Shown piece by piece: positions 7,424 through 50,762 of a stretch of DNA of 64,000 nt (position 1 is the stretch's first letter; every line of letters starts with the position of its first letter). The position numbers and the translations under genes are program-made. Below the pieces are notes generated by a model, which saw nothing but the letters and a program-made list of their open reading frames with translations, was not told the DNA's origin and did no database searches. This DNA comes from Planctomycetota bacterium (GTDB taxonomy: Bacteria > Planctomycetota > B15-G4), in assembly GCA_021604805.1 (NCBI GenBank), contig BQJR01000004.1, positions 513,794 through 577,793 on the forward strand, in the 5' to 3' direction.

Positions 7424-7615
7424 GGCAACCGGGCAAGGGGCGGGACCACTCCTCGCGCCGCGATTGACAGGCCCGGTGACCGCGGTACCGTGGCCGCATC
7501 GTGTGGGGCGAGACGGTCGGTAAGTCTCCGACAGCAACGTCACGTTCGACGCGGTGAACGCGCCGGGCAGCGCAGGACGACTCGGCGTGCATCCTTCTCC
7601 GGAGCCACGAGTCGC

Positions 7616-23692: not shown

Positions 23693-24841
23693 TCAGCCCT
23701 CAATGCCGCGCTGACGACGAGCTCGCTGGGCCGCACGCCGCGCCGCGTTCTGCGCCTCCTGGTCGAGCTCCTCCGCGGCGGCGCGCGGGCTGAGCGGCGC
23801 GTGCAAGTAGATCGACTTGCGCAACTGCGCTTCCCAGAGCGGCGCCATCGGCGTGCCTTCCAAGCGCATGTCGCCCCAGTTCTCCAAGCCGACGTGCTCG
23901 CGGAAATCGCGGTTGCTGTAGCAGAAAGCGCGGATCACCGGGTAGCGACGGATCAGGTCGAAGAAGGGCTGGAACCAGAGGCGCCAAGTGTTGCGATCGT
24001 GGATGTCGAGCTTGCTGGGCGCGGCCTCCGGCAGCATCACGGGTTTGCCGCGCGCGCGTGCGTCGCGCAGGAAGTCCACCACCCTCGCGCGCAGGTCGGT
24101 GTGCGACAGGTCGGCATAGAAGATGTCGATCGACCACCAGTCGACCCAGGCATCACCGGGGTACCAGAGTTCGAAGTCGGGCTGCACGTCGCGCAAGGCC
24201 TTGTAGCTCCACATGTGGATCGCGTTCTCCACGCCAGCGGCACGGAAGCGTTCCACGATGTAGCGGTAGGCCTTGACGAACTCGCGCGGCTGATGCCCGA
24301 TCTTGGGCACGTTGACCTCGGGCGCGATGCGCAGGAACACCGGGCGCCCCGCTTGTCGCACGAGCTCGACGAGCTGGTCGAGCTTGGTGTCGAAGTGGCC
24401 GGCGGTCACGTCGGCGCCGAGGCCGCGCATCTGATCGTTGCCGAGCGAGGCGCGGAAAGAGATCGAGAGCACGGGCAGGCGCGTGGCGTGGTGCTGCATG
24501 TAGCCGCGTAGGTCGTCGACCAAGTCGTCGAAACTCACGCGCTCGGTGGGCGCCAGGTTCACGCCCATGCGCACCAACATCGGCGGCGTGGCCGGGAAGG
24601 CGTTCACGTAGCCCTCGACCTCGCGCGGGTTCCACATCGGGCCCACGCCGTGCAGCACGTGATCGAGCTTGCCGGTGCGCAGGGTCTCGAGGCCGTAGGT
24701 GCGCACCGGCGCGCGCGCGTCGGGGGGCTCAGCGCCCGGCGCGAGGTACGTGACCGGCACCGAAACAGACTCACTCGATGCGTTCGGCGACGCGCACCCG
24801 AGCGCGGCACCGAGACCCAGCAGCGACAACATGCGCAACAT
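23693..24841 (-). CDS. Lipoprotein glycoside hydrolase, clan GH-A (GH26/GH5-like)
   Basis: MLRMLSLLGLGAALGCAS has a lipobox. 'VFLRIAPEVN' is acid/base-Glu-like, 'WYPGDAWVDWWSIDIFY' was also seen, and 'KPVMLPEAAP' is nucleophile-Glu-like. The family assignment is tentative. Confidence 0.6.
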   Translation of the reverse strand: MLRMLSLLGLGAALGCASPNASSESVSVPVTYLAPGAEPPDARAPVRTYGLETLRTGKLDHVLHGVGPMWNPREVEGYVNAFPATPPMLVRMGVNLAPTERVSFDDLVDDLRGYMQHHATRLPVLSISFRASLGNDQMRGLGADVTAGHFDTKLDQLVELVRQAGRPVFLRIAPEVNVPKIGHQPREFVKAYRYIVERFRAAGVENAIHMWSYKALRDVQPDFELWYPGDAWVDWWSIDIFYADLSHTDLRARVVDFLRDARARGKPVMLPEAAPSKLDIHDRNTWRLWFQPFFDLIRRYPVIRAFCYSNRDFREHVGLENWGDMRLEGTPMAPLWEAQLRKSIYLHAPLSPRAAAEELDQEAQNAARRAAQRARRQRGIEG

Positions 24842-24943
24842 TCAGCGCCTCCTCGAGAGCGGCCGCGACGAAGTCGTCGCGCACAGAGACCACGTGAAAC
24901 AAGCCTCGAGAGCGCAGGTGACGCTCAGCCCGGTGTGCTCAGC

Positions 24944-26911
24944 TCAGCCCGGCGAGCCTTCGCCCGGCGCGAGCAGCTCGCCCACGAGCTTCGCGAAGCG
25001 CGAGGGGTCGCTCAGCTGACTGCCTTCGGCGAGCAGAGCCTGTCCGTGCACGAGCTCGAGGAACTGGTGGAAGCGCGGGCTGTCGGCGTCGGCAGCGTGC
25101 AGTTCCTTGAGGCGCGACACCACCGGGTGCGACGGGTTCAGCTCGAGCACACGCTTGTTCGCCGGCACTTGCTGACCGCTCGCGCGCAACATGGCTTCGA
25201 GCTGCGGCGACAGGCCACCCTCGGCGCCCACGAGCACCGCGGGGCTCTCCTTGAGGCGGCTGGAGAGGCGCACCTTCGACACGTAGTCGTCGAGCGAAGC
25301 TTGCGCGGCGCCGAGCAGACCTTCGAGTTCCTTCTCCTGCTCTTCGCGCTCGCTCTTCTGTTCGTCGGTTTCGGCGGCGGCGTCACCCTGTTCGAGCGAA
25401 CGCAGCGGCTTGCCTTCGAACTCGTTGAGGCGCTGCACGACCCACTCGTCGACCGGGTCGACCAGGAACAAGACTTCGTGTCCCTTGCCGGACACGGCCT
25501 CGAGGTGCGGCGACTTCTCCACCGAATGACGGTCGGCGCCGGTGACGTACCAGATGGCTTCCTGGTCGGGCTCCATGCGGTCCACGTACTCGGCGAGCGT
25601 GCAGGGCTCGGCACCCTTGCTCGTCTGCCACAAGCACACCTTGGCGAGCTCGGCGCGGTGGGCGTCGTCGATGTAGAGGCCTTCTTTCAGCACCGAGCCG
25701 AAGGCCGTCCAGAACTCCGCGTAGGTCTCGCGCTCCTTCTTGAGCATCTCGCCGAAGGTGTCGAGCAGCTTCTTCACGAGGCGCTTGCGAATCTGCGCGA
25801 TCTGGCGGTTGTGCTGCAGCGTTTCGCGCGAAACATTGAGCGGCAGGTCGCTGCTGTCGACGAGCCCGCGCACGAAGCGCAGCCAGCCGGGCAGCAACTC
25901 TTCGCACTCGGCCATGACGAAGACCTTCTTCACGTACAGGCTGAGGCGCGAGGCCTGCTTGCTCGGGTCGAGGATCTCGGCGTTGCGCTGCGTGGGCAGG
26001 TAGAGCAGCGCCGTGTATTCGTGGGTGCCTTCCGCGCGGAAGTGGATCGTGCGCAGCGGCTTGTTCCAGTCGTGCGTGAGGTGCGAGTAGAACTCGTCGT
26101 AGTCGCTCTGCTCGATCTCGTTGCGCGGGCGCACCCAGAGCGGCTTGCGCGAGTTGAGCGTCTGCAGCTCGGTGACCGTGGTGGGTTCTTCGTCGCCCTC
26201 CTTGGTTTCCGTGCGCTCGACTTCCATCTGCACGGGGTGCTCCACGAAGTCGGAGTACTTCTTCACGATCGTGCGCAGCGCGTACTCGTCGGTGAAGTCG
26301 GCGTGCTCGGACTCGGGGTCGGCGTCGCGCAGCAGCAAGGTGATGCGTGTGCCCACGCTTTCCTTGTCAAAGCTCTCCACGGAGAACTCGCCGTCGCCCT
26401 TGCTCGACCAGCGCGTGGCCTCGGTCTCACCGAGCCTGCGGGTCTCGAGCTCGACCTCGTGCGCGACCATGAAGGCGCTGTAGAAGCCCACGCCGAACTG
26501 GCCGATGAGTTCCGGCGCGGACTCGGTGGCGACGTCCTCACTCTTGCCCTTGCCCTTCTTCGTGGCGGTCTTGCTGGCGCGCAACTGCTCGAGGAAGGCG
26601 CGCGTGCCCGAGCGCGCGATGGTGCCGATGTTGTCCACCAGCTCCTGACGGCTCATGCCGATGCCGTTGTCTTCGATGATCAGCTTGCGACCTTCGGGGT
26701 CGCGTTCGAGACGGATCTGCGGCTCCCAGTCGTTGTCGCGCAAGGCCTCGTCGCTGAGGGCGGCCACGCGGCGCTTGTCGATGGCGTCGGAAGCGTTGCT
26801 GATCAACTCGCGCAGGAAGATCTCCTTGTGCGAGTAGAGCGAGTGGATCATCAGATCCAGGAGTTCGCTGGTTTCGGCTTGGAAGCGGTGGGTTTCAGCT
26901 TGGGCGGTCAT
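24944..26911 (-). CDS. htpG: Molecular chaperone HtpG (Hsp90)
   Basis: 'FQAETSELLDLMIHSLYSHKEIFLRELISNASDAIDK' and 'GQFGVGFYSAFMVA'. The ATG at 26911 was chosen; the 78 upstream codons of the listed ORF look non-coding. Confidence 0.95.
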   Translation of the reverse strand: MTAQAETHRFQAETSELLDLMIHSLYSHKEIFLRELISNASDAIDKRRVAALSDEALRDNDWEPQIRLERDPEGRKLIIEDNGIGMSRQELVDNIGTIARSGTRAFLEQLRASKTATKKGKGKSEDVATESAPELIGQFGVGFYSAFMVAHEVELETRRLGETEATRWSSKGDGEFSVESFDKESVGTRITLLLRDADPESEHADFTDEYALRTIVKKYSDFVEHPVQMEVERTETKEGDEEPTTVTELQTLNSRKPLWVRPRNEIEQSDYDEFYSHLTHDWNKPLRTIHFRAEGTHEYTALLYLPTQRNAEILDPSKQASRLSLYVKKVFVMAECEELLPGWLRFVRGLVDSSDLPLNVSRETLQHNRQIAQIRKRLVKKLLDTFGEMLKKERETYAEFWTAFGSVLKEGLYIDDAHRAELAKVCLWQTSKGAEPCTLAEYVDRMEPDQEAIWYVTGADRHSVEKSPHLEAVSGKGHEVLFLVDPVDEWVVQRLNEFEGKPLRSLEQGDAAAETDEQKSEREEQEKELEGLLGAAQASLDDYVSKVRLSSRLKESPAVLVGAEGGLSPQLEAMLRASGQQVPANKRVLELNPSHPVVSRLKELHAADADSPRFHQFLELVHGQALLAEGSQLSDPSRFAKLVGELLAPGEGSPG

Positions 26912-27092
26912 CGTGAATCCGTGTCCTGAGCGGTGCGTGAGGACCGCGCATTGTAACGACGCGGGCAGGCCTGCGGCGAGTCGTGCGAGCGGGCCGGCCC
27001 GATGCGCTGAGCGGGCGACCGACACGCGCGGCGTGGGCCGCTGGCGGACCGCAGGCCGAGATCCCGCACTGGAGGCAGCGGCCGTGCCGAAG

Positions 27093-27917: not shown

Positions 27918-29021
27918 ATGTTCCGCTCACTCTGGGCCGCGTCGTCGCTGGCCCTGCTGGCGGCCTTGAGTTCGCCCGCCGCAGCGCTGCAAGCCGAGCA
28001 GGTCGACGAGCTCCCCGGCTACTACCAGTTCTACAAGCGCACCGGCGACATGGCCGAGCTCGAAGCCGAGCGCACCTTCGCCGCGGCCATGGAGGCCGGC
28101 GAGTACGAAGCGCTGCACCCCGGCACGCCGCTCGTGGACCTCGCGCTGCCCACGGCCAACGGTGTCGACCTGCGCATCCGGCGCAACCTGGGCAAGCGCA
28201 ACACGCTGCTCGTCACCTTCCGATCGTGGTGGTGACTGTTCTGCATGAGGCAGCTCGTGCAGCTGCATGATTCACTTCCGATCTTCGACGCGCTCAACAC
28301 CGACATCATCGCCGTGGCTCTCGAGGAGAGTGACCCGGCCAAGCTCAGCCGCATCCCGAAGCTCGTGGGCGACAAGATCACCTACGTGGCCAACGCCAAG
28401 GGGCGCGCCGACGGCAAACTCCCCAAGACATCGGCGCTGCTGATCGACCGCGACGGCATCGTGCAAACCGTGTTGCCGGGCATCGTGCAAGCGCGCGCGC
28501 CCACGCGTTTGATCCTCGACGAGCTGGCCGCGATGACCGGTGTCACGATCCCTTCGCGCGAGGAGATCAGCGACGACCCCGACGCCGGGCCGATCAGCGT
28601 GCGCTGGGCCTGGTCGCATGACAGCGTGGGGCCCGACGAGCCGCTCAAGCTGATCTTCATGCCCGAGTTGGGCGAGGGCGTCACGCTCGCGGCCGCGGGC
28701 GAGAACCAACTGACGGCGTCGGTCGAGCTGCCGGAAGGTCTCGAGTTGGTCACCGACTTCACGTTGCCCAAGGGCGAGGCGCCCGACGGCATCCGCGGCG
28801 TGGCGAGCGTGTATCGCCGCGACGTTCCGCTCGGCGCGCTCGAGCTGCGCGGCACCGAAGCGCTCAGCGACGGCGAGGCGATCGTGCGCGTCACGCTGAC
28901 CTCGTCGATGTGCACCAAGCGCGGCTGCCACACGCCCGAAGCCGTCGTCTACGAGCTACCGATCCGCACGAACGCTTCGGCCAAGCGGCGCGGCGAGCTC
29001 TTCAACTGGGCGAGTTGGTGA
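27918..29021 (+). CDS. Candidate selenoprotein: secreted thioredoxin-fold redoxin (U-x-x-C) fused to a DsbD-alpha-like domain; in-frame TGA at 28233-28235
   Basis: ORFs 27918..28235 and 28245..29021 share one frame. The junction reads ...LLVTFRSWW-TGA-LFC-MRQLVQLH...IIAVALEE, which is the redoxin layout with TGA in place of the first active-site Cys. G/C-saturated third positions continue across the TGA. The signal peptide is MFRSLWAASSLALLAALSSPAAALQA. The C-terminal 'SSMCTKRGCHTPEAVVYELPI' is DsbD-N-like. Confidence 0.75.
28244..28269 (+). promoter_or_regulatory. Candidate bacterial SECIS hairpin
   Basis: The hairpin starts 9 nt after the UGA. 28244-28246 (CAU) pairs with 28267-28269 (AUG). 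A GAG bulge follows. 28250-28255 (GCAGCU) pairs with 28261-28266 (AGCUGC). The apical loop is CGUGC and contains GU. It was folded by eye only. Confidence 0.55.
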
Positions 29022-29062: not shown

Positions 29063-31447
29063 ATGCCCGTGACTGCCTCGCGCCTCCTCCTGCGGTTTCG
29101 TCTGCTCGCCGCGCTCGCGCTCGGTGCGCTCGGCGTGGGTTGCGGCCCCAGCGCGCCGCCGCCCGACTTGTTGCGGCTCGACTCGCAGCTCCTGCCCGAT
29201 CTCCAGCTCACGCCGCCGGATGCGGCAGCAGCGAGCGCCGAGCTCTTGGCGAGTTGGCCGGCAGCTTCGGGCGCGCCGCTCCGCTTGCACCGCGTGCAGC
29301 CGCTGGGCGACGGCGGGTTGCGACTCACGGAAGCCCCCGAGCGCGAGGCCTTTGCGCTCAAGGCGTCGCGCATCCTGCTGCTGGACGCCGCACCTGGCGA
29401 GCTGCTGCGCGTGGAGGTCGAGTTCGAAGGCCTCGGCCCGACGCGCGTGATCGGCGGCATCACGAGCTTGCCCGAACGCTTGCGCGCCGGTGACACGCGC
29501 GCGGGCAGGTCGGCGCAAGGCCTGCTGCGCGCCGTGCGCGACGACGCGCGTCCGCTCCCCACCGAAGTCGCGGGAACGGTGCAGCTCGCGCGCGCGCTGC
29601 ACCGGATGCCCGCGGATCACACACAGCTGGCCGTGATGCTCAAGGGCAGCGCGGAGCCGGCCCGCCTGTTGGCCGTGCGCGTGGAGCGCCTGTCACTCAC
29701 GGAGTACCTGGCCGAAGATCTCCCGCGCGTGCACGAGATCAAGCCGCAGGCCCAGGTGCTCTCACGCGCGCTGCGTCTGGAACGCGACGTACGCCGCGGT
29801 CTGCGCCTCGACCCCGACACGATCTGGCGCTGGCGACTCCCCGCACACGAACGCGCTTACCGTTTCGAAGCCGCGCTCGGCCTCGCCCCGCGACACGTCG
29901 CGCTCGGCGGGAAGCTGCATCTGCGGGTGCTCGCCGATGGCGCAACGCTCTTGGACCGCGAACTCAGCGGGAGCGCCGACCTGAGCGTGTCGGCGTGGAC
30001 GCCGCTGCGCGCGGAGTTGCCCGTCGGGACACGCACGCTCGAAGTGCACGCCAGCTGGCCCAGCGGCGACGGCCCGCTCGCCATGCTCGCGCACCCGCGC
30101 TTGCGTCGCGCCGAACTCGAAGCGCCGCCGAACCTGCTCGTGATCAGCCTCGACACGCTGCGCTCGGATCGCCTCGGAGCCTACGGCGGCCCCGCACCCA
30201 GCGCGCACCTCGATGCCTTCGCCGCGCAGAACCTGATGTTCACGCGCGCCTACGCACCCTCGGCCTACACGCTCCCCGGACACGCCAGCCTGCTCAGCGG
30301 GCAGCTCCCCGCGCTGCACGGTGCGCGCGATCTCAAAGACAAGGTCGACGCCGAACGCACGCCGCTGCTCGCGCCGAACTTGGCCGCGCAAGGCTACGTG
30401 ACCGCGGCCTTCACCGGCGGCGGCTTCCTCTCCACGAGCTTCGGCTTCGGCGCCGGCTTCGACCGCTTCGCGCACAACGACCCATGCTGGCCGGTGGACA
30501 CACAACGCGGGCAGCAGCTGCTCGGCCTCCCCGATGAAGGCGCTTACGAACTCGCCCTGCTGCAGCGCTCAGGCGTGGATCAGCTCGCCGCCTGGCTCCA
30601 CGCACAACCGCCGGGCGCACCCTTCTTCGCGCTCGTCCACACCTACGCCACGCACAACTACGCGCCCAATCAACGCTGGCTCGAACGCGCAGGATTGCTC
30701 GACGACGACGGCGCCGAACGCCCGTTCTCCCACGCCGAGAGCAAAGCCTTCCACGCCGGCCAACTCGAGCTGCGCGACGCCGTGTACGAGCAGTTCGCCG
30801 CGCACTACGACGCCAGCATCGGCATGGCCGACGACTTCGTGGGCACGCTGCTCGACGCGCTCGAACGCAGCGGGCACGCGCAGGACACCGTGGTCGTGAT
30901 CACCTCGGATCACGGCGAAGAGCTCGGCGAACACGATCGCTTCGGACACGGCCGGTCGCTGCGCGAAGGTGTCACGCGCGTGCCGCTGCTGGTGCGCGTG
31001 CCCGGCCGCGCCGCCGCACGCATCGAAGACAGCGTGAGCTTGGCCGACGTCGCACCGTGGTTGCTCCGCCTGCTCGGCCAGCCCGTGGACCCGCGCATGC
31101 AAGCGCCGCCGGCCCTGGCGCCCGACACGCTCGACCCGCCCACGCGGCACACCACGCTGCTCGACCTCGGCGCCGGCTCGATCGACCTCTGGGCGCTGCG
31201 CGAGGGCGATCACAAACTCGTGTTCGACGCCGCCCGCGACAACTGGCAACTCTTCGACCTCGCGAGCGCACAAGGCGAGCACCGCGACGTGTCGTCGGAG
31301 GAGCCCGAGGTGCTCGACGCGCTGCGTCACAAACTCGAGGGCTACCGCGCGCTGGCCGAAGCGCGCGAAGCCGCGGGCGAAGGCCTGCTCGATCCCGAGA
31401 CGCGCCGGCAGCTCGCGCAACTCGGCTACCTCGACGGGGACGACTGA
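29063..31447 (+). CDS. Lipoprotein, alkaline-phosphatase-superfamily (sulfatase/NPP-like) hydrolase with ~330-aa N-terminal extension
   Basis: LLAALALGALGVGCG has a lipobox. Also seen: 'NLLVISLDTLRSDRLGAYGG', 'SAYTLPGHASLLSG' (Thr at the nucleophile position, not Cys/Ser), 'VVITSDHGEELGEH', and a C-terminal 'LAQLGYLDGDD'. Confidence 0.8.
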   Translation: MPVTASRLLLRFRLLAALALGALGVGCGPSAPPPDLLRLDSQLLPDLQLTPPDAAAASAELLASWPAASGAPLRLHRVQPLGDGGLRLTEAPEREAFALKASRILLLDAAPGELLRVEVEFEGLGPTRVIGGITSLPERLRAGDTRAGRSAQGLLRAVRDDARPLPTEVAGTVQLARALHRMPADHTQLAVMLKGSAEPARLLAVRVERLSLTEYLAEDLPRVHEIKPQAQVLSRALRLERDVRRGLRLDPDTIWRWRLPAHERAYRFEAALGLAPRHVALGGKLHLRVLADGATLLDRELSGSADLSVSAWTPLRAELPVGTRTLEVHASWPSGDGPLAMLAHPRLRRAELEAPPNLLVISLDTLRSDRLGAYGGPAPSAHLDAFAAQNLMFTRAYAPSAYTLPGHASLLSGQLPALHGARDLKDKVDAERTPLLAPNLAAQGYVTAAFTGGGFLSTSFGFGAGFDRFAHNDPCWPVDTQRGQQLLGLPDEGAYELALLQRSGVDQLAAWLHAQPPGAPFFALVHTYATHNYAPNQRWLERAGLLDDDGAERPFSHAESKAFHAGQLELRDAVYEQFAAHYDASIGMADDFVGTLLDALERSGHAQDTVVVITSDHGEELGEHDRFGHGRSLREGVTRVPLLVRVPGRAAARIEDSVSLADVAPWLLRLLGQPVDPRMQAPPALAPDTLDPPTRHTTLLDLGAGSIDLWALREGDHKLVFDAARDNWQLFDLASAQGEHRDVSSEEPEVLDALRHKLEGYRALAEAREAAGEGLLDPETRRQLAQLGYLDGDD

Positions 31448-31450
31448 GTC

Positions 31451-32182
31451 ATGCGCCCGCCGCCCTTGGGCAACCGCCGCCGCCGCGACGAACTCATGGA
31501 CGACCCCGCGCTCGACGCGGCGCGTCATCACGAGGCGCTCGAGGGCCTGGCGCGCCTGCACCGCGCGAGCTTCACGGCGCGTCGCATCTGGTCGCGGCTG
31601 GCACCCTTGGCCCGCACGCAAGACACACCGCTGCGCGTGCTCGACGTGGCCTGCGGCGGCGGCGAGTTGCTCGTGGATCTCGCGCAGCGCGCGCGTCGTG
31701 CCGGTCTCGAACTGGAAGCGTGGGGTTGTGATCGGAGCGACGTCGCCCTGCAACACGCCGAGAACGCCGCGCAGCGTGCCGGACTGTCCGCGCATTTCCT
31801 GCAAGCCGACGTGCTGCACGAGCTGCCGCTGCACACACCCGACGGCGCTCCCTACCACGTGATGCTGAACTCGCTGTTCCTGCACCACATCTCCGAGACC
31901 GAAGCCTTCCATTTGCTCACGCGCCTGCGCGAGCACGCCACGCGCGCGGTGCTGGTGCACGACCTGCTGCGCTCGCGCGCGGGTTGGCGCTGGGCCTGGC
32001 TCGGCTCGCGTTGCCTCACGCGTTCGCCGGTGGTGCGTCACGATGCGCTGGCCTCGGTGGAGTCCGCCTTCAGCTACAGCGAGCTCGGCTTCCTGTTCGG
32101 TCGCGCCGGCATGCACCGCAATCAAACCCGAGTCTGGACGCCGTGGCCCGCGCGACTGCTCGCGCTCTGGCAACGACCGTGA
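31451..32182 (+). CDS. Class I SAM-dependent methyltransferase
   Basis: 'VLDVACGGGELLVDLA' is the SAM motif I. The start is 3 nt after the upstream stop, and the stop overlaps the next start (GTGA). Confidence 0.8.
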   Translation: MRPPPLGNRRRRDELMDDPALDAARHHEALEGLARLHRASFTARRIWSRLAPLARTQDTPLRVLDVACGGGELLVDLAQRARRAGLELEAWGCDRSDVALQHAENAAQRAGLSAHFLQADVLHELPLHTPDGAPYHVMLNSLFLHHISETEAFHLLTRLREHATRAVLVHDLLRSRAGWRWAWLGSRCLTRSPVVRHDALASVESAFSYSELGFLFGRAGMHRNQTRVWTPWPARLLALWQRP

Positions 32183-33375
32183 CGCGAACTCCGATCCTGG
32201 TGGTGGGCGGCGGACCGGCGGGCGCGCTCGCGGCGCGCGGCTTGGCCTTGCGCGGGCAACGCGTGGCCTTGATCGAAGCTCGCTCACAGGCCCATGACAA
32301 AGTGTGCGGCGCCTGCTTGCACCCCGAGGCCGTGCGCGAACTCGATCGCGCCGGGCTCGGGCAGCTGCTCGAACACGCGCAGGAGTTGAGCTCACTCGAG
32401 CTCTTCCGCAACGCACGACGGGTGCGCTTGCAGGTGGCGCTCGGCCGCGTGTTGTCGCGTCGTGCGCTGGACGAAGCGCTTTTGCTCGCCGCAGTCCACG
32501 CCGGCGTGGAGCTGCGCCGCGGACACAGCGCGGTCTCGCTCACGACCCGTCACGACGGCGTGGAGCTCGACGTGCGCGCGCCCACCGGTGAGGTCGCACG
32601 CGAGCACGCCTCCGTGGTGTTGCTCGCGAACGGGCTCGGCAACCTACGCGTGTCGAGCAGCGCCGGCCCGAGCGCCTCGCGCGCCGCGGCGGGAAGCGCA
32701 CCGACATCGCGCGCCACGACAGCGAGCAGGGCGTCAGCGGGCGCACGTGCGCGTCGACCGGCGCGGGCGCGGCGTTTGGGCGCGGGCGCGATCCTCCCGG
32801 CGTCCGCTCCCGGGCCCGAGCGCGGCCTGCTGCAGATGTTCGTCGCGCCGGAGGGCTACATGGGCGTCGTGCGCCTGGAAGACGACCGCCTCGACCTCGC
32901 CGCCGCCTTCGATGCCGAAGCCTTGCGCAACGCGGGCGGCGCCGCCGACCTGGCCGCGCGACTGTTCGCGCGCGCCGACCATGCGCTGCACGAGTTCGCA
33001 GGCCGCGCGCGTTGGCGAGGCACGCCCGCGCTCGCGCGACCGGAAGCACCCACGCTGCAGCACGTGCTCCCGCTCGGCGACGCCGCCGGCTCCGTGGAAC
33101 CCTTCACCGGCGAGGGCCTGCGACGCGCCTTCGTCCAAGCGAACGCCGTGGTGGAGCACACGCTCGACGCCGTTGCCGGGAACGGGCAAGCCGCCGCTCG
33201 CTGGGCCCGCACGCGACGCGAGCTGTTGCGCGCGAACACCGCGCGCGTGAACCGTCTCGCTGGAGCCCTGCGACATCCGCGCGTGGTGGCTTTGGGCGTG
33301 GGGCTGGCGTCGCTCTGGCCCGCGGCTGCCGAGCGCGTCGCGGGAAGCTTGCACGGCCGAACGGTGCTGCGATGA
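32179..33375 (+). CDS. FAD-dependent oxidoreductase (geranylgeranyl-reductase/hydroxylase-like); the central ~130 nt has the codon signature of another frame
   Basis: 'ILVVGGGPAGALAARGLALRGQRVALIE' is a Rossmann GxGxxG; 'LLANGLGN' and 'GYMGVVRLED' were also seen. Residues encoded by ~32643-32775 are S/A/R/T/P low complexity. See the finding on the frame anomaly. Confidence 0.7.
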   Translation: MTRTPILVVGGGPAGALAARGLALRGQRVALIEARSQAHDKVCGACLHPEAVRELDRAGLGQLLEHAQELSSLELFRNARRVRLQVALGRVLSRRALDEALLLAAVHAGVELRRGHSAVSLTTRHDGVELDVRAPTGEVAREHASVVLLANGLGNLRVSSSAGPSASRAAAGSAPTSRATTASRASAGARARRPARARRLGAGAILPASAPGPERGLLQMFVAPEGYMGVVRLEDDRLDLAAAFDAEALRNAGGAADLAARLFARADHALHEFAGRARWRGTPALARPEAPTLQHVLPLGDAAGSVEPFTGEGLRRAFVQANAVVEHTLDAVAGNGQAAARWARTRRELLRANTARVNRLAGALRHPRVVALGVGLASLWPAAAERVAGSLHGRTVLR

Positions 33376-34427
33376 GCGCCGCGCTGCTCGGCTTCGGCGC
33401 GGCCTGGCCGCCCCACGAACTCAGCGCCGCGCGTTGCGTCGAGTTGCTCGCGAGCTGCACGCGCGTGCCCGAACGCACGCTCCGCGCACTCGTGCGTCGC
33501 TCGGGCGTGAACACACGTCGCGTGGTGCTCCCGACCGAGGGCGAAGCGGGCTTGCGCGAACTGCTGCAGAGCGAAGCCCCCCGCGGCCCCGGCACCGCGC
33601 GTCGCATGCAACTGTTCGCGCAACACGCGCCGCCGCTCGCCGAAGCCGCCGCGCGCGAGGCCTTGCTCGAGGCCCGAGTCCACGCCGGCGCGATCACCCA
33701 CCTCGTGTGCGTGAGTTGCACCGGTTTCGTGGCGCCCGGCCTCGACCACGCGTTGAGCACCGCGCTCGCGCTGAGCCCCGACGTGCAGCGCACCCAGGTC
33801 GGCTTCATGGGTTGCCACGGCGCGCTCAACGGGCTGCGTGTGGCCCAGGCCTTCGCCGAACAGAACGCACGTCATCGCGTGCTCTTGGTGGCCGTGGAGC
33901 TGTGCAGCCTGCACGTCCAGACGGATCCCGACAACGCGCAACTCGTGTCCAACCTGCTCTTCGGCGACGGCGCCGCCGCGGTGCTGCTCGCTTCCGAAGG
34001 GAACGGGCCGCGTCACGTGGGCGGCGCCAGTCACTTACTGCCCGACAGCGCTGAGCTCATGAGCTGGCGCATCGGCGACGCGGGTTTCGAGATGGGCCTC
34101 TCTGCCGAAGTGCCGGCCGTGCTGCGCGCGACCCTGCGCCCTTGGGTCGACGCGCAACTCGCCGCCCACGCGCTCACCCGCAACGACGTCGGTGCTTGGG
34201 CGGTGCACCCCGGCGGCCCGCGCATCCTCGACGCCGTGGAGCAGGCGCTCGAGCTCCCGCGCCGCGCACTCGCTGCCTCGCGTGAGTTGCTCGCCACGCG
34301 CGGCAACATGTCGTCGCCCACGGTGCTCATGTTGCTGCGCGGGTTCGCCGCAGCCGACACGCCGCGCCCGTGGGTGGTGCTGGCCTTCGGGCCCGGGCTC
34401 AGCGCGGAACTGGCGTTGCTGACGTAG
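33372..34427 (+). CDS. Type III polyketide synthase (chalcone/stilbene synthase family)
   Basis: The catalytic triad contexts are 'VSCTGFVAPG' (Cys), 'WAVHPGGPRIL' (His) and 'GNMSSPTVL' (Asn). The ATG overlaps the upstream stop (ATGA). Confidence 0.9.
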   Translation: MSAALLGFGAAWPPHELSAARCVELLASCTRVPERTLRALVRRSGVNTRRVVLPTEGEAGLRELLQSEAPRGPGTARRMQLFAQHAPPLAEAAAREALLEARVHAGAITHLVCVSCTGFVAPGLDHALSTALALSPDVQRTQVGFMGCHGALNGLRVAQAFAEQNARHRVLLVAVELCSLHVQTDPDNAQLVSNLLFGDGAAAVLLASEGNGPRHVGGASHLLPDSAELMSWRIGDAGFEMGLSAEVPAVLRATLRPWVDAQLAAHALTRNDVGAWAVHPGGPRILDAVEQALELPRRALAASRELLATRGNMSSPTVLMLLRGFAAADTPRPWVVLAFGPGLSAELALLT

Positions 34428-34496
34428 GCACGCGTCGGCACGCGTTGGCACGCGTCCGCACACGTGGGCGCGCGTCGGTCGGCGTCGGCGCGCGTC
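34427..34496. repeat. Seven tandem 10-bp units (GGCACGCGTC and variants) filling the whole space between two convergent stop codons
   Basis: The units are GGCACGCGTC GGCACGCGTT GGCACGCGTC CGCACACGTG GGCGCGCGTC GGTCGGCGTC GGCGCGCGTC. The first G overlaps the TAG of the PKS gene, and the last bases overlap the MarR stop. Confidence 0.85.
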
Positions 34497-35007
34497 AGCT
34501 TGTGGGCGGGAGTTCGCCTTCCAGCTCTGCCAGCAGCCGCCGCAGGATGCGTTCCAGGCTGGTGCGATCCCGCTCGGGCAAGTTCGCCACGGCGCTCGTG
34601 GCTTCGTCGAAGCGCGCTTCGAGGGCGCTGTCGACCGTGGCGAGGCCCTGCTCGGTGAGCGACACGCGCACGCCGCGCCGATCTCCGGGCTGCGCTTCAC
34701 GGCGCACGAGGCCGGCCGCCTCGAGCCGGTCGATGCGGTTCGTCATCGCGCCGGGAGTGAGCAGGATCGTGCGACTCAGCTCGGTAGGCGTGAGCCGGTA
34801 GGGCGCACCTTGGCGACGCAGCGTGGCGAGCACGTCGAAAGAGGACAGCGCCAGCTCGTGGGGCTCGAGCGCCTGCCCGACGCGCCGCTCCAGGAGCTTG
34901 CCGAGCAGCAGCAGGCGCCCCACCACACCGAAGCCTCCGGTGTCGAGATCGGGCCGCTCCGTTGCCCATTGAGCCTGAATCGCGTCGATGCGGTCGTTCT
35001 CGGTCAT
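34495..35007 (-). CDS. MarR-family transcriptional regulator
   Basis: 'FDVLATLRRQGAPYRLTPTELSRTILLTPGAMTNRIDRLEAAGLVRREAQPGDRRGVRVSLTEQG' is a winged HTH. The ATG at 35007 is preferred; codons 35008-35037 are rich in A/T at third positions. Confidence 0.85.
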   Translation of the reverse strand: MTENDRIDAIQAQWATERPDLDTGGFGVVGRLLLLGKLLERRVGQALEPHELALSSFDVLATLRRQGAPYRLTPTELSRTILLTPGAMTNRIDRLEAAGLVRREAQPGDRRGVRVSLTEQGLATVDSALEARFDEATSAVANLPERDRTSLERILRRLLAELEGELPPTS

Positions 35008-35046
35008 GCGGCCCGTTCTACTCGATCTTCCTTCCACATAAAACTA

Positions 35047-43319: not shown

Positions 43320-45623
43320 ATGCACACAGCTTGCTGCCACCTCGTCGCGGCGCGCCGGTTTCGTTTCGGCGCGACGACTCCAGGACGCCGTGACGCGCGG
43401 ACTCCCGAGCGCGTCGTCGTGCAGGCTCCAGGGGGCCATGTCGCGCTGACTCCGGGGCACTTCGTCGCGCGGGCTCCAGAGCGCTTCCTCGCGCGGATCC
43501 GCATCGGGCTGCTCAGCGTGGTCTCGTTCGCGACACTCGGCGCGGTGCTGAATGCACAAGCCGGCGAGCTGCCGGAGCAGGAGCGCGACGGCCGTGTGTG
43601 GTCCTTTGCCGCGGACCCCGGTGAGCTCGACGGCCTCTCGCAACTCGGTGACGAGTCCGACGACCTGCCGCGCCCCGTGCTCCTCGCCGGCGACGCCGAT
43701 GCCGACGGCGACGGCGTGCCCGACCTCGCGATCGCCTCGCCCGGCACCGACGAAGTCCGCGTGCACTCGGGCAAGACCGGCGCGCTGCTCAGCACCCTCG
43801 CCAACCCGTCCCCCGGGCTCACCTTCGGGCGCGAGATCGCCTTCGCCGGCGACACCAACGGAGATGGCCGCAGCGAGATCCTGATCGGCTTCGGCGCGGA
43901 ACTCGGCGGCGCGCTGTCCACGGGCGGCGGCGCCGAGGGAGTCTCCGACCGCGGTGTGCAGCTCTTCGCGCTCGAAGGTGGCGACGCCCTGCACACACTC
44001 GATGAGATCGACGACGCGCTCGCCTTCTGCGGCCTCGGCGATGTCAACGGCGACGGCTTCTCCGACTACGCCGTCGCGCGGCACGACTCACCGATGGGCA
44101 TGCGCAGCGTGGAAGTGCGCTCGGGCGCCACGTCGGCCGTGATCCGCACGCACAGTCAGCTCATCGACGACAACGCCTTCCTCGACTTCGGCGCGCGCGT
44201 GGCCGGCGTGGGCGACCTGAACGCCGACGGCGTGCCCGACCTCGCCGTGTCTGCGCCCGGAGCCGAGCTCGCCATCGACGAAGGCGGCGCGCTACCGCTC
44301 GCGGGTCGCGTGCTCGTGTACTCGGGCGCGAACGGCAGCGAGCTGCTCGACATCGCGGGCCCCGCCGGCGGCGCGCGCTTCGGCCTCGCGTTGCGCGCCG
44401 CCGGTGACCTGAACGGTGACGGCACCCGCGACCTGGTCGCCTTCAGCCAGAGCGAGAACCCCTTCGAGCTGCTCACCGGGAGCGTGCACGCCGTGTCGGG
44501 CTCCGACGGGAGCGAACTCTTCCAGGTGCAGAGCTCGCTGGCCACGTCGGGCTCCGATGCGGCTGGCAACATGCTCGGTTCCGGCCGCTTGGTGGATGCC
44601 TGCGGCGCGGGCGATGTGAACGGCGATGGCTTCGACGACGTCGTCGCCGCCGTGATGCTCGACGCCGGTCTCGACGCGCCGGCCCTGCGTGTGTTCTCCG
44701 GTGTCGACGGGAGCTTGCTGCGCGGCCTCGCGCTGCCCGACGGCGAAGGCGTCGTGCTCGTCTCGCCCGCCGGAGACCTGAACGGCGACGGTCACGCCGA
44801 GCTCGCCGTGACCACGCGCGGAGCAGGCGGCGCGGCCGGTCTCGCGCAGGTCGTGTTCGGCGGCGACCCGTGGTTCGGCACGCTCGGCGACCGCGTGCAG
44901 CACATCACCAGCCCCGACGCGAGCGACGCGTTCTTCTTCGCAGCCGTGAAGGGCACGCGCCTCAAAGCCGCGCTCAAACGCCTGAAGCAAGGCACGCTGC
45001 TCCCCGCGCTCGACGTGATCGGCCCGCTCCCGTTCACCGACTCACTGATCGGCGAGCAGCCGCTGCTCGCTGCGAACGGCAAGTCGGTGAAGTTGCCCAA
45101 GAACTTCACGCTGCCCGACACCGGCGTCTATCGCATCGAGGTCTCGGCGGGTGACGGCAACGCAGGCGCCTACCAACTCAAAACGAGCGGCGGCAAACCG
45201 AAGGTGTCCGGCGTGATCGACGCCGGCGGCCCCGACGACGAGCCCCCGGTGGTGCTGCCGGGCCAGAAAGTGATCGGCACAGTGGAAGCAGGCGAGGTCA
45301 CCTCCACCGTGGTCCCCGCCGTAGCCGGTTCCGAAATCACCATCACCGTGAAGCGCGGCAAGGGCAGCGCCCTCAACCCCGAGTTCGGCCTGCTCTTCCA
45401 AGGCGTCACCGACCTGATCTTCATCTTCCCCGAAGGCACCGCGATCAACCCCAAGACCGCCCGAGTCAAAAAGTTCACCCTCCCCGAAACCGGCCTCTAC
45501 CGCATCGAAGTCAGCGGCGCCAACAACAGCGCCGGAACCTTCACCCTCCGCACAAAACAAAAGCCCCCAAAAGGCAAAACAAAGTCAAAGCTGCCCACCC
45601 CCCTAAACCAAACACCCCAATAG
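43320..45623 (+). CDS. FG-GAP repeat protein with two C-terminal PPC-like beta-sandwich domains (start uncertain)
   Basis: 'DADADGDGVPDLAIASPG', 'DTNGDGRSEILIG', 'DLNADGVPDLAVSAPG', 'DVNGDGFDDVVAA'. The C-terminal duplicated blocks are 'FTLPDTGVYRIEVSAGDGNAGAYQLKT' and 'FTLPETGLYRIEVSGANNSAGTFTLRT'. The hydrophobic signal-like segment (LLSVVSFATLGAVLNAQA) sits ~60 aa after the listed ATG. Confidence 0.75.
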   Translation: MHTACCHLVAARRFRFGATTPGRRDARTPERVVVQAPGGHVALTPGHFVARAPERFLARIRIGLLSVVSFATLGAVLNAQAGELPEQERDGRVWSFAADPGELDGLSQLGDESDDLPRPVLLAGDADADGDGVPDLAIASPGTDEVRVHSGKTGALLSTLANPSPGLTFGREIAFAGDTNGDGRSEILIGFGAELGGALSTGGGAEGVSDRGVQLFALEGGDALHTLDEIDDALAFCGLGDVNGDGFSDYAVARHDSPMGMRSVEVRSGATSAVIRTHSQLIDDNAFLDFGARVAGVGDLNADGVPDLAVSAPGAELAIDEGGALPLAGRVLVYSGANGSELLDIAGPAGGARFGLALRAAGDLNGDGTRDLVAFSQSENPFELLTGSVHAVSGSDGSELFQVQSSLATSGSDAAGNMLGSGRLVDACGAGDVNGDGFDDVVAAVMLDAGLDAPALRVFSGVDGSLLRGLALPDGEGVVLVSPAGDLNGDGHAELAVTTRGAGGAAGLAQVVFGGDPWFGTLGDRVQHITSPDASDAFFFAAVKGTRLKAALKRLKQGTLLPALDVIGPLPFTDSLIGEQPLLAANGKSVKLPKNFTLPDTGVYRIEVSAGDGNAGAYQLKTSGGKPKVSGVIDAGGPDDEPPVVLPGQKVIGTVEAGEVTSTVVPAVAGSEITITVKRGKGSALNPEFGLLFQGVTDLIFIFPEGTAINPKTARVKKFTLPETGLYRIEVSGANNSAGTFTLRTKQKPPKGKTKSKLPTPLNQTPQ

Positions 45624-50643: not shown

Positions 50644-50762
50644 CGAGGCAAGCTTATCAGCCAGACGGGCGCGAGCCGCGTCGAGGAAAGAGCCGCGCGA
50701 ACGCTCGGCCAGGGAGGGTCCGGGCGCCCGCGCGGCAACCGTAGGCAGGGGTCGCTCCCGAC

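What the first reader, a model, noticed from the sequence alone, without database searches (positions are those of the whole stretch)
27918..29021. In-frame TGA at the CxxC position of a secreted thioredoxin-fold protein: candidate U-x-x-C selenoprotein fused to a DsbD-alpha-like domain
ORFs 27918..28235 and 28245..29021 are in the same frame. They are separated only by TGA (28233-28235) plus three codons.

Read through, the junction is ...GKRNTLLVTFRSWW-[TGA]-LFC-MRQLVQLHDSLPIFDALNTDIIAVALEE... This is the canonical redoxin/AhpC-TSA layout: beta strand, Trp, C-x-x-C, helix, then a second strand 'IIAV'. The TGA sits exactly where the N-terminal catalytic Cys belongs.

G/C-saturated third codon positions run uninterrupted on both sides of the TGA. 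That argues the whole 367-codon frame is under coding constraint.

Nine nt downstream a hairpin can form. CAU 28244-46 pairs with AUG 28267-69, a GAG bulge follows, GCAGCU 28250-55 pairs with AGCUGC 28261-66, and the apical loop is CGUGC with GU. This is the place and general shape expected for a bacterial SECIS.

The N-terminus is a signal peptide, so the product would be periplasmic. The C-terminal half carries 'SSMCTKRGCHTPEAVVYELPI', reminiscent of the redox Cys pair of the DsbD N-terminal domain. That would make this a fused two-module thiol/selenol relay.

Standard gene callers would start at ATG 28245 and lose the signal peptide and the active site.
Basis: partly seen in the sequence, partly recalled or inferred. 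Interest (0 to 1): 0.8.

Follow-up and report, generated by a model that had tools for sequence, protein, structure and literature searches.

The report
Secreted selenoprotein mis-annotated as two genes
Two adjacent "genes" are almost certainly one gene for an exported redox protein whose catalytic residue is selenocysteine, encoded by a conserved in-frame TGA and an RNA hairpin; it belongs to a rare, uncatalogued family fused to a DsbD-alpha-like domain.

Summary
ORFs 27918-28235 and 28245-29021 form one 367-codon frame interrupted only by TGA 28233-35. The same TGA is present in all 20 distinct two-domain relatives whose DNA I read (28-76% protein identity, 46-74% GC). Both sides are conserved, and the N-terminal side is the better conserved. 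The only full-length database homologue has Cys there (WWCLYC against WW-TGA-LFC). ResA and TlpA structures align their N-terminal active-site Cys to this column.

It is 97.9% paired in 20 sequences, has two compensatory pairs, and its synonymous sites are frozen. It is broken in the Cys form. TGA ends 41 of 47 window genes, so the codon is not reassigned.

The C-terminal domain is DsbD-alpha-like. Eleven of 14 members match Pfam DsbD_N, the only PDB profile hits are DsbD-alpha, and the best fold matches are DsbD-N and ScsB-N.

Not shown: the Sec machinery (absent from the window), the electron donor, and the substrate.

Thioredoxin-fold UxxC selenoproteins are a well-known kind. This fusion architecture is not in NCBIfam or in the 2026 list of 119 families.

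The parts
27918..29021 (+). Complete selenoprotein gene: 367 codons including Sec106, terminated by TGA 29019-21
   Evidence: Single frame with one internal TGA. The same organisation is found in 20 distinct loci. The AhpC-TSA hit spans the TGA.
27918..27986 (+). Predicted Sec-type signal peptide (MFRSLWAASSLALLAALSSPAAA | LQ)
   Evidence: Read directly from the sequence: Arg3, a hydrophobic core and an A-x-A site. All full-length members have an equivalent N-terminus. No predictor was run.
28008..28049 (+). Conserved N-terminal motif ELPGYYQFYKRTGD (P33, G34, Y35 and G43 invariant in the 7 full-length members)
   Evidence: Alignment A5. Function unknown.
28122..28463 (+). Thioredoxin-fold domain of the ResA/TlpA/AhpC-TSA type
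   Evidence: Pfam AhpC-TSA covers aa 69-182: 22.9 bits for the window protein, below the cut-off of 26, and 7 of 7 family members match with best E 6e-11. PDB profile hits are ResA 2H1B (E 5e-7) and TlpA 1JFU.
28233..28235 (+). In-frame TGA, predicted Sec106
   Evidence: TGA in 20 of 20 distinct Sec-form two-domain loci and in the sister families L023 and L024/L025. TGC in the one Cys form, L006.
28233..28244 (+). U-L-F-C redox motif (UxxC)
   Evidence: Aligned with the C-x-x-C of ResA/TlpA. C109 is invariant.
28250..28266 (+). SECIS-like upper stem-loop: GCAGCU (28250-55), loop CGUGC (28256-60), AGCUGC (28261-66)
   Evidence: It is the RNAalifold consensus. It is 97.9% paired in 20 sequences, against at most 52% for slid controls. 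Two pairs show compensatory changes, and no shuffle out of 500 reaches the covariation score. Stem codons have frozen synonymous sites. The stem is broken in the Cys form.
28244..28269 (+). Possible lower stem (CAU 28244-46 with AUG 28267-69) flanking the upper hairpin; weak support
   Evidence: 72% of cells paired. The middle pair is A-U, C-G or G-C in 8 sequences and mismatched in 10 of 18.
28581..28988 (+). DsbD-alpha-like (DsbD_N-like) beta-sandwich domain, a divergent member
   Evidence: The AF2 model has pLDDT 87.9 and is all-beta here. Foldseek top hits are DsbD-N 6DPS (E 1e-4) and ScsB-N 6C29. Family-level Pfam DsbD_N matches 11 of 14 members, but not the window sequence itself. The PDB profile hits only DsbD-alpha.
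28911..28928 (+). Cys332-x4-Cys337 pair (CTKRGC, followed by H-T-P-E)
   Evidence: Both Cys are invariant in the 14-member alignment A8. They align with E. coli DsbD C103/C109, YQGCADAGFCYPPE.
28989..29018 (+). Conserved C-terminal tail RGELFNWASW (W364 and W367 invariant in A5; the protein ends in Trp)
   Evidence: Alignments A5 and A8. Function unknown.

Best explanation
Gene: 27918-29021 is one gene for a secreted selenoprotein.

Recoding (inferred mechanism): During translation, UGA 28233-35 is decoded as selenocysteine by SelB and Sec-tRNA(Sec). SelB is recruited by the SECIS stem-loop at 28250-28266. That hairpin lies inside the codons for the conserved helix R-Q-L-V-Q-L, and its G/U-containing apical loop begins 20 nt after the UGA.

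Product: The signal peptide is removed, leaving a periplasmic or extracytoplasmic two-domain protein.
- The N-terminal domain is a ResA/TlpA-like thioredoxin fold. Its active site is Sec106-Leu-Phe-Cys109.
- The C-terminal domain is a DsbD-alpha-like beta-sandwich carrying Cys332-x4-Cys337.

Catalysis (inferred): The selenolate is the attacking nucleophile in thiol-disulfide exchange and cycles through a Se-S bond with Cys109. In the window-type and canonical members, the alpha-like Cys pair probably exchanges electrons with the UxxC site or with a membrane DsbD/CcdA/ScsB-type donor encoded elsewhere. That would make the protein a soluble reductive-pathway module.

Shown computationally: gene continuity, conservation of the TGA, the Cys/Sec pair, the conserved hairpin, and the identity of both domains.

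Inferred: actual Sec insertion, export, the direction of electron flow, and the substrate. I put about 0.85 on "genuine Sec-encoding gene" and about 0.4 on the intramolecular relay.
For: TGA conservation: The TGA is conserved with the same flanks (WW-TGA-x-[FY]-C-[MLV]RQLV) in 20 distinct loci. These come from Planctomycetota, Hydrogenedentota and unclassified MAGs or metagenomes at 46-74% GC.

Coding on both sides: The N-terminal part is more conserved than the C-terminal part.

Cys homologues: The Cys-containing homologue P0011 has WWCLYC. ResA and TlpA Cys align to the same column.

Database truncation: 31 hits among 1.84 billion representatives, and almost all begin at the residue just after the UxxC motif.

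Hairpin: It is the RNAalifold consensus. It is 97.9% paired, with compensatory G-C to A-U and C-G to G-C changes, and no shuffle out of 500 reaches the covariation score. Codon entropy is 0 bits at Leu107 and Leu113, against 0.98-1.81 bits at other conserved Leu columns. The loop codon Val114 is free. The stem is disrupted in the Cys form. The loop always contains G. [quoted passage not shown]

TGA as a normal stop: TGA terminates 41 of 47 window ORFs, including this gene.

No independent downstream gene: Codon 110 is Leu in many members, so there is no conserved start codon after the TGA.

Domains.

Phylum-level plausibility: Complete Sec machinery is documented in several Planctomycetes (PMC4807772).
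Against: - No selA, selB, selD or tRNA-Sec lies in the 64-kb window or in any fetched flank. The decoding capacity of this genome is therefore untested.
- No Rfam SECIS model matches.
- The hairpin's thermodynamic stability is not exceptional for 70% GC.
- Much of the stem overlaps strongly conserved amino acids. Compensatory events are few: 3 cells in 2 pairs.
- Only one Cys form exists within the family.
- Against an obligatory relay, five members or subclades lack the alpha-domain Cys pair.
- No CcdA/DsbD-type partner is a conserved neighbour.
- The window protein itself fails the Pfam DsbD_N model and is below threshold for AhpC-TSA.
Confidence: 0.8

Rival explanations
1. The gene is a genuine selenoprotein, but it is not a dithiol relay. 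The UxxC thioredoxin-fold domain acts on its own, for example as a Prx-like peroxidase or a specific disulfide or metal reductase. The DsbD-alpha-like domain serves only for docking or substrate binding.
For: A subclade (L007/L011, L019, L022, P0011, P0019) has lost the alpha-domain Cys pair but keeps UxxC or CxxC. Single-domain and other-architecture relatives carry the same Sec/SECIS module without DsbD_N. No DsbD/CcdA neighbour is conserved. AhpC-TSA and peroxiredoxin structures are among the hits.
Against: The Cys pair is retained in most members, including the window protein. It sits at the position of the redox-active C103/C109 of DsbD. The motif is W-U-x-x-C as in ResA/TlpA, not the peroxiredoxin PxxxTxxC.
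Confidence: 0.3
2. The UGA is recoded, but not as Sec. The conserved hairpin and the UGA-C context stimulate near-cognate read-through (Trp or Cys), or act as a regulated termination/read-through switch.
For: UGA is followed by C in 17 of 18 two-domain sequences. From general knowledge, UGA-C is a weak termination context. Sec machinery was not observed.
Against: The recoded position is exactly the catalytic Cys column of a CxxC motif, and the only alternative codon seen there is Cys. That is the classical Sec signature. The position and shape of the hairpin match bacterial SECIS elements. Trp at a CxxC nucleophile position would inactivate the protein.
Confidence: 0.06
3. These are two real separate genes. 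A small secreted 105-aa protein ends at TGA, and an independent 258-aa protein starts at ATG 28245. This is how every database annotates the locus.
For: All database entries are called this way. The ATG lies 9 nt after the stop in the window.
Against: The split would cut a thioredoxin fold in two and delete its active site. The downstream start is not conserved: codon 110 is CTA, CTG or CTC in many members, and gene callers then pick various later starts. The 258-aa product would lack a signal peptide although DsbD-alpha domains are periplasmic. The Cys form is one continuous 427-aa protein.
Confidence: 0.04
4. The locus is a pseudogene, or the TGA is a sequencing or assembly error for TGC/TGT.
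For: A single-base change from TGY would give TGA.
Against: The identical TGA occurs in 20 independent assemblies from different samples and phyla. Purifying selection is visible on both sides, and no other stops or frameshifts are present.
Confidence: 0.01

Closest known systems
Prx-like thiol:disulfide oxidoreductase and related thioredoxin-fold UxxC selenoproteins (Pfam PF00578 / PF08534 / cd02966 rows of Table 1 in PMC13188914; first described in the prokaryotic and Sargasso Sea selenoproteome studies)
   Same: AhpC-TSA/Redoxin-type thioredoxin fold. Sec is the N-terminal residue of a UxxC redox motif. The SECIS hairpin lies immediately downstream inside the coding region. Such genes are usually mis-annotated as truncated ORFs.
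   Different: Here the module follows a signal peptide and a conserved LPGYY motif, and it is fused to a C-terminal DsbD_N-like domain with its own Cys pair. No curated NCBIfam selenoprotein model reaches threshold; the best is SelL_rel_redox at 25 bits against a cut-off of 120. The family is almost entirely Sec-form, whereas these known families mostly have abundant Cys homologues. I could not retrieve the reference sequences of the listed families, so direct orthology was not tested.
ResA / TlpA / CcmG (DsbE): extracytoplasmic thiol-disulfide reductases of the cytochrome c and copper-protein maturation pathways
   Same: These are the best sequence matches among solved structures (ResA 2H1B E 5e-7, TlpA 1JFU). 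They share the W-C-x-x-C active-site layout, extracytoplasmic location and the reductive direction.
   Different: They use Cys, are membrane-anchored or stand-alone single domains, and receive electrons from a separate DsbD/CcdA. Here the nucleophile is Sec and a DsbD-alpha-like domain is covalently attached.
DsbD (alpha-beta-gamma) and ScsB periplasmic N-terminal domains
   Same: The C-terminal domain has the DsbD_N fold and the Cys pair in the ...QAC-x4-C-x-P-P... context. In DsbD an Ig-like alpha domain and a thioredoxin-fold gamma domain exchange electrons, so the same two folds are combined in this protein.
   Different: There is no transmembrane beta domain, so the protein cannot import electrons by itself. 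The domain order is reversed (thioredoxin fold first, alpha last). The thioredoxin fold is ResA/TlpA-like rather than gamma-like. The window subfamily has lost the GWHVY motif and fails the Pfam model. Some members lack the Cys pair.
[quoted passage not shown]
   Same: It is the only DsbD-related entry in the current selenoprotein catalogue.
   Different: It has a different architecture (rhodanese domain, UxxxxU motif, 2 Sec). The window protein and its relatives give no NCBIfam hit to it.

Membership tests
Bacterial selenoprotein gene (Sec-encoding UGA) | In-frame TGA conserved among different homologous sequences, with coding conservation on both sides | tested here: met
   20 distinct loci carry TGA at the same column. 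N-part identity is 62-79% and C-part 55-74% among close orthologues.
Bacterial selenoprotein gene (Sec-encoding UGA) | Cys-containing homologues aligned at the TGA column | tested here: met
   P0011/L006 has WWCLYC (TGC) within the family. The ResA/TlpA active-site Cys aligns to the column. Only one Cys form exists inside the family itself.
Bacterial selenoprotein gene (Sec-encoding UGA) | SECIS stem-loop immediately downstream of the UGA with a small apical loop containing G | tested here: met
   A 6-7 bp stem at +18..+34 with a loop of 3-5 nt that always contains G. It is the RNAalifold consensus, 97.9% paired, with 2 compensatory pairs and frozen synonymous sites. No Rfam model matches. bSECISearch was not available.
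Bacterial selenoprotein gene (Sec-encoding UGA) | selA, selB, selC (tRNA-Sec) and selD present in the same genome | not testable with these tools
   They are absent from the 64-kb window and from all fetched flanks. Some Planctomycetes are reported to have the full set (PMC4807772).
Bacterial selenoprotein gene (Sec-encoding UGA) | Selenium actually incorporated (75Se labelling or mass spectrometry) | not testable with these tools
   This needs an experiment.
Bacterial selenoprotein gene (Sec-encoding UGA) | UGA otherwise functions as a stop in the genome (no reassignment) | tested here: met
   41 of 47 window ORFs end in TGA, including this gene. No other credible in-frame TGA was found.
AhpC-TSA / Redoxin thioredoxin-fold (PF00578, PF08534); ResA/TlpA-like | Match to the family HMM above the curated threshold | tested here: inconclusive
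   The window protein scores 22.9 bits against a cut-off of 26 (E 8.6e-5). Relatives match 7 of 7 at E below 0.01, best 6e-11. P0011 has a precomputed AhpC-TSA hit. The profile against PDB finds ResA at E 5e-7.
AhpC-TSA / Redoxin thioredoxin-fold (PF00578, PF08534); ResA/TlpA-like | C-x-x-C (here U-x-x-C) at the N-terminus of helix 1, after a beta-strand and Trp | tested here: met
   The alignment to ResA shows this layout. The AF2 model shows a helix directly after the motif and then the strand IIAVA.
DsbD_N (PF11412, DsbD-alpha) | Match to the Pfam HMM | tested here: not met
   The window C-terminal domain and its two close orthologues give no Pfam hit. Eleven of 14 aligned family members do, with best E 5.4e-15. 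Membership of the window domain is therefore by transitive homology only.
DsbD_N (PF11412, DsbD-alpha) | Ig-like beta-sandwich fold resembling solved DsbD-alpha structures | tested here: met
   The AF2 model has pLDDT 87.9. Foldseek ranks 1-4 are DsbD-N 6DPS (E 1e-4, TM by target about 0.5) and ScsB-N 6C29. TM-scores are moderate, and generic beta-sandwiches follow closely.
DsbD_N (PF11412, DsbD-alpha) | Redox Cys pair in the ...C-x(4-5)-C-x-P-P... context near the C-terminal strand | tested here: met
   C332-TKRG-C337-HTP is invariant in A8 and aligns with DsbD C103/C109. Spacing is 4 residues, against 5 in E. coli.
DsbD (full-length alpha-beta-gamma electron transporter) | Transmembrane beta domain (DsbD/CcdA, PF02683) linking the periplasmic domains | tested here: not met
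   No such domain is in the 367-aa protein. None is encoded in the window, and none is a conserved neighbour.

The most novel reading that the evidence does not exclude
This is a previously uncatalogued family of exported proteins that almost always uses Sec. A selenol/thiol ResA/TlpA-like module and a DsbD-alpha module are fused into a soluble "mini-DsbD", that is, a new type of periplasmic electron relay. The Sec/SECIS thioredoxin module has also been combined with different partner domains in sister families. Sec would be there to speed or bias inter-domain disulfide exchange.
Probability: 0.35. Interest if true: 0.65.

Novelty: new variant of a known kind. Interest (0 to 1): 0.5.

Why it matters
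- Annotation: every public copy of this gene is split into two meaningless ORFs. The active site and the signal peptide are lost from protein databases. Recognising the family allows those entries to be corrected, and a family model could be built from alignments A5/A6.

- Selenium biology: the family adds an exported member to the bacterial selenoproteome, centred on Planctomycetota. Unusually, Sec forms vastly outnumber Cys forms (20 to 1 among the loci read here).

- Envelope redox biology: a thioredoxin-fold domain covalently linked to a DsbD-alpha domain is a natural single-chain version of the DsbD alpha-partner complexes. It could be a convenient system for studying how Sec changes inter-domain electron transfer.

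- Limits: it does not change how Sec decoding or DsbD-type pathways are understood.

Tried and rejected
- Window MFE hairpin (CUGCAUGAG/CUCGUGCAG, loop GCAG): rejected as the functional element. It is only 70-80% paired, and three pairs are broken in most divergent members.

- Rfam at gathering and at permissive thresholds: only noise, no SECIS family.

I worked instead from the post-TGA part plus database proteins.

- First AF2 run with 4 sequences: poor (pLDDT 53). The second run with 25 sequences was good.

- First genome-contig scan: it found nothing because my U-to-C substitution put TGY into the search pattern. Repeating it with X at that column gave 13 loci.

- Pfam and NCBIfam on the window's C-terminal domain alone: nothing.

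- Conserved gene neighbours across 17 loci: none.

- sel genes, tRNA-Sec and CcdA/DsbD in the window and flanks: none.

- Other in-frame TGA genes in the window: the remaining candidates are antisense or off-frame artefacts of a 70% GC genome.

- Literature: no mention of a DsbD_N-fused selenoprotein. BSepDB text gave nothing specific.

- Taxon of the window organism: not established. The closest named relatives of the protein are at most 38% identical.
Full report
**1. The observation**

The window sequence is as described. ORF 27918-28235 (105 aa) and ORF 28245-29021 (258 aa) share a frame. They are separated by TGA 28233-35 followed by CTG TTC TGC. The read-through is ...GKRNTLLVTFRSWW-[TGA]-LFC-MRQLVQLHDSLPIFDALNTDIIAVALEE...

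Third-position GC is 0.92 in the upstream ORF and 0.90 in the downstream ORF. A weak Pfam AhpC-TSA match covers residues 69-182, so it crosses codon 106 (E 8.6e-5, 22.9 bits against a cut-off of 26).

**2. Is it more than chance? Comparative evidence**

A word-indexed search of 5.8 billion proteins found only four relatives. All were annotated at 254-258 aa, which is the downstream ORF only. Their contigs show the same arrangement: an upstream ORF of about 105 aa, a 9-nt gap and the same frame. The TGA sits in the identical context.

Among these orthologues the N-terminal part is 62-79% identical to the window. The part after the TGA is 55-74% identical. The upstream ORF is therefore under at least as much protein-level constraint as the downstream one.

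An exhaustive HMMER scan of 1.84 billion cluster representatives used a profile of the post-TGA part. It found only 31 proteins.
- Nearly all start at profile position 1 to about 24 and at their own residue 1. They are truncated at or just after the same spot.
- The single exception, P0011 (427 aa), is continuous and reads ...TQAWWCLYCMRQLVE... It has Cys where the window has TGA. Its codon is TGC.

I read DNA for four further divergent members (L005, L007, L008, L009). I also read 13 loci from species-representative genomes, of which 12 are new and L011 is the L007 contig. Most are Planctomycetota MAGs, including Phycisphaerales and Planctomycetales. One is Hydrogenedentota and some are unclassified.

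Every one has TGA at the column, in the context WW-TGA-[LW]-[FY]-C-[MLV]-R-Q-L. Counting the window, that is 20 distinct TGA loci against one Cys form. The regions around these loci range from 46% to 74% GC.

**3. Alternative trivial explanations**

- Sequencing error or pseudogene is excluded by this conservation.
- Genome-wide reassignment of TGA is excluded. TGA terminates 41 of 47 predicted genes in the window, including this gene and its three close orthologues.
- Two independent genes is very unlikely.
  - The split would bisect a thioredoxin fold and remove its active site.
  - Codon 110 is ATG only in some members. In others it is CTA, CTG, CTC or GTG, and gene callers then choose assorted downstream starts.
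  - The Cys form is a single polypeptide.

**4. The RNA element**

Folding the window sequence alone gives a 9-bp hairpin (CUGCAUGAG/CUCGUGCAG, loop GCAG). Its energy is ordinary for this composition (z = -1.35). That hairpin is not conserved. It is 69.8% paired in 18 sequences, and three pairs are broken in most divergent members.

It is what RNAalifold predicts de novo on the 18-sequence alignment. In members with Glu at codon 115 a seventh pair (C24-G28) forms and leaves a triloop. In the window subfamily (Gln, CAG) the loop is the pentamer CGUGC.

I added the two sister-family sequences, giving 20 distinct rows.
- The 7-bp stem is paired in 97.9% of cells. Slid controls reach 20-52%.
- Two pairs carry compensatory double changes. 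G21-C31 becomes A-U in the 46%-GC locus L012, through synonymous CAG to CAA and CUG to UUG. C24-G28 becomes G-C in L023 and L024.
- The covariation score is 0.103, against 0.049 +/- 0.014 in shuffles. None of 500 shuffles reaches it.

Synonymous sites tell the same story.
- Leu107 is CTG in 17 of 17 sequences, and Leu113 is CTC in 18 of 18 (0 bits).
- Leu116 is CTG or TTG, both of which keep the pair (0.31 bits).
- Six other equally conserved Leu columns carry 0.98-1.81 bits.
- The loop codon Val114 uses GTG, GTT and GTC (1.06 bits).

In the Cys form the corresponding codons are GUC GAA GUG, and the stem is broken. The loop always contains G. It begins 20 nt (pentaloop) or 21 nt (triloop) after the A of UGA.

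[quoted passage not shown] From my own knowledge of the E. coli fdhF element, the essential loop G23/U24 sits at almost the same distance. Here it is G25/U26.

Rfam has no matching model. I regard that as uninformative.

**5. The protein**

*N-terminus.* MFRSLWAASSLALLAALSSPAAA|LQ has the features of a Sec-type signal peptide. Every full-length member has an equivalent. This was read by eye; no predictor was run. An invariant LPGYY motif follows.

*Thioredoxin-fold domain.* It matches Pfam AhpC-TSA in 7 of 7 full-length members (best E 6e-11) and Redoxin in 6 of 7. Among solved structures it matches ResA best (2H1B, E 5e-7), then TlpA. In those alignments the TGA column coincides with the N-terminal active-site Cys of W-C-x-x-C.

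*Structure model.* The AF2 model of the post-TGA part has mean pLDDT 87.9 with a 25-sequence alignment. It shows the helix that starts at the motif, the IIAVA strand, and an all-beta C-terminal domain.

*C-terminal domain.*
- The window sequence and its two close orthologues do not match any Pfam model.
- Eleven of 14 aligned family members match DsbD_N (PF11412), with best E 5.4e-15.
- The family profile's only PDB hits are five DsbD-alpha structures (3PFU, 1JPE, 1L6P, 5NHI, 1JZD; E 0.005-0.08).
- In those hits the invariant Cys pair aligns with DsbD C103/C109, YQGCADAGFCYPPE.
- Independently, Foldseek ranks Neisseria DsbD-N (6DPS, E 1e-4) and ScsB-N (6C29, E 3e-4) first among 350,542 chains for the window model. 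TM-scores are moderate, about 0.5 normalised by target.

The window subfamily has lost the GWHVY motif and has a 3-residue deletion, but it keeps C-x4-C-x-x-P. The protein ends in a conserved ...W-x-x-W.

**6. Mechanism**

*Shown in silico:* a single gene, a conserved UGA at the catalytic position, a Cys/Sec pair, a conserved hairpin of SECIS type, and two identified domains.

*Inferred from established knowledge of bacterial Sec decoding (SelB, tRNA-Sec, SECIS) and of ResA/TlpA/DsbD chemistry:*
- Sec106 is inserted co-translationally.
- The protein is exported.
- The selenolate attacks substrate disulfides and is resolved by Cys109.
- The alpha-like Cys pair mediates electron exchange with the UxxC centre or with a membrane donor.

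*Which direction is more likely?* In canonical systems DsbD-alpha donates electrons to CcmG/TlpA-type proteins. The likelier direction is therefore donor, then alpha-like domain, then U106/C109, then substrate. This is speculative for three reasons.
- No CcdA/DsbD/ScsB gene is in the window or conserved nearby.
- A subclade (L007/L011, L019, L022, P0011, P0019) has lost the alpha-domain Cys pair.
- Sister families carry the same Sec/SECIS module without DsbD_N.

The UxxC centre is therefore the constant catalytic element, and the relay is an optional addition.

**7. What could not be tested**

No selA, selB, selD or tRNA-Sec is in the window or in any flank. The Sec-decoding capacity of the source genome is therefore unknown, and so is the organism itself.

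At phylum level the trait is documented. Several Planctomycetes carry complete Sec-insertion gene sets and selenoproteins (PMC4807772).

**8. Comparison with what is known**

Thioredoxin-fold UxxC proteins are the commonest class of bacterial selenoproteins. The 2026 compilation of 119 families lists these (PMC13188914):
- Prx-like thiol:disulfide oxidoreductase (PF00578, UxxC);
- thiol:disulfide interchange protein (PF13098);
- a UGC-containing TlpA family;
- Redoxin family protein (PF08534).

By domain content, the N-terminal module of this protein belongs with those. I could not retrieve their reference sequences to test orthology.

No listed family has a DsbD_N fusion. No NCBIfam model reaches threshold for any of seven members; the best is SelL-related redox protein, far below its cut-off. 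Text searches found no description of such a fusion.

The near-absence of Cys forms (1 in 21) is also atypical. In the Sargasso Sea study, most selenoprotein families occurred sporadically against widespread Cys homologues.

**9. Verdict**

This is a genuine candidate selenoprotein that is systematically mis-annotated. It is a new architectural variant within a well-known kind.

Interest is moderate. It is valuable for annotation and as a model for Sec in envelope redox relays, but it is not conceptually surprising.

Noticed in passing
L023:1-477; L024:1-486; L025:1576-2658: Sister families carry the same Sec/SECIS thioredoxin module in other architectures. L023 reads YRAHW-TGA-PYCVRQLVQL. L024/L025 read YRRST-TGA-GQCMKQLVQL, with AhpC-TSA at E 1.5e-16. 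Neither has a C-terminal DsbD_N domain. L025 instead has a beta-rich N-terminal extension of about 200 aa with a signal peptide and no Pfam hit, annotated as a separate 246-aa gene. Both keep the GCAGCU/AGCUGC stem.
   Followed up: partly
window 28008-28049 and 28989-29018: Two family-invariant features have no known role. One is the LPGYY motif just after the signal peptide. The other is a C-terminus that always ends ...W-x-x-W-COOH.
   Followed up: no
L007/L011, L019, L022, L006 (P0011), P0019: A subclade of the family has lost both Cys of the DsbD-alpha-like domain while keeping UxxC. The only Cys-for-Sec member (P0011) lies in this subclade.
   Followed up: partly
window 31451-34427 (+), with MarR at 34495-35037 (-): This is a small biosynthetic cluster of a methyltransferase, an FAD-dependent monooxygenase and a type III polyketide synthase (Chal_sti_synt domains). 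The annotation comes from the identical contig L004.
   Followed up: no
whole window: Stop-codon usage is extremely skewed: 41 TGA, 6 TAG and 0 TAA among 47 predicted ORFs at 70% GC. The high GC also creates long spurious antisense ORFs, for example 24650-26929 (+) opposite htpG.
   Followed up: partly
window 3183-3833 (-), 7490-10168 (+), 23693-24841 (-), 29063-31447 (+), 43320-45620 (+), 49210-50961 (-): The gene content includes a BMC-domain protein, two large FG-GAP repeat proteins, a GH26 glycosidase and two sulfatases. This is reminiscent of Planctomycetota-like polysaccharide degraders. The taxon of the window was not established.
   Followed up: no
window 28245 vs 28257: The database protein identical to the window (P0001, 254 aa) was called from GTG 28257 rather than ATG 28245. 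Across the family, gene callers pick different arbitrary starts downstream of the TGA.
   Followed up: yes
window 28236 (and the same position in the relatives): The base after UGA is C in 17 of 18 two-domain sequences, and Leu107 is always CTG. This suggests constraint on the immediate 3' context of the recoded stop as well as on the hairpin.
   Followed up: no
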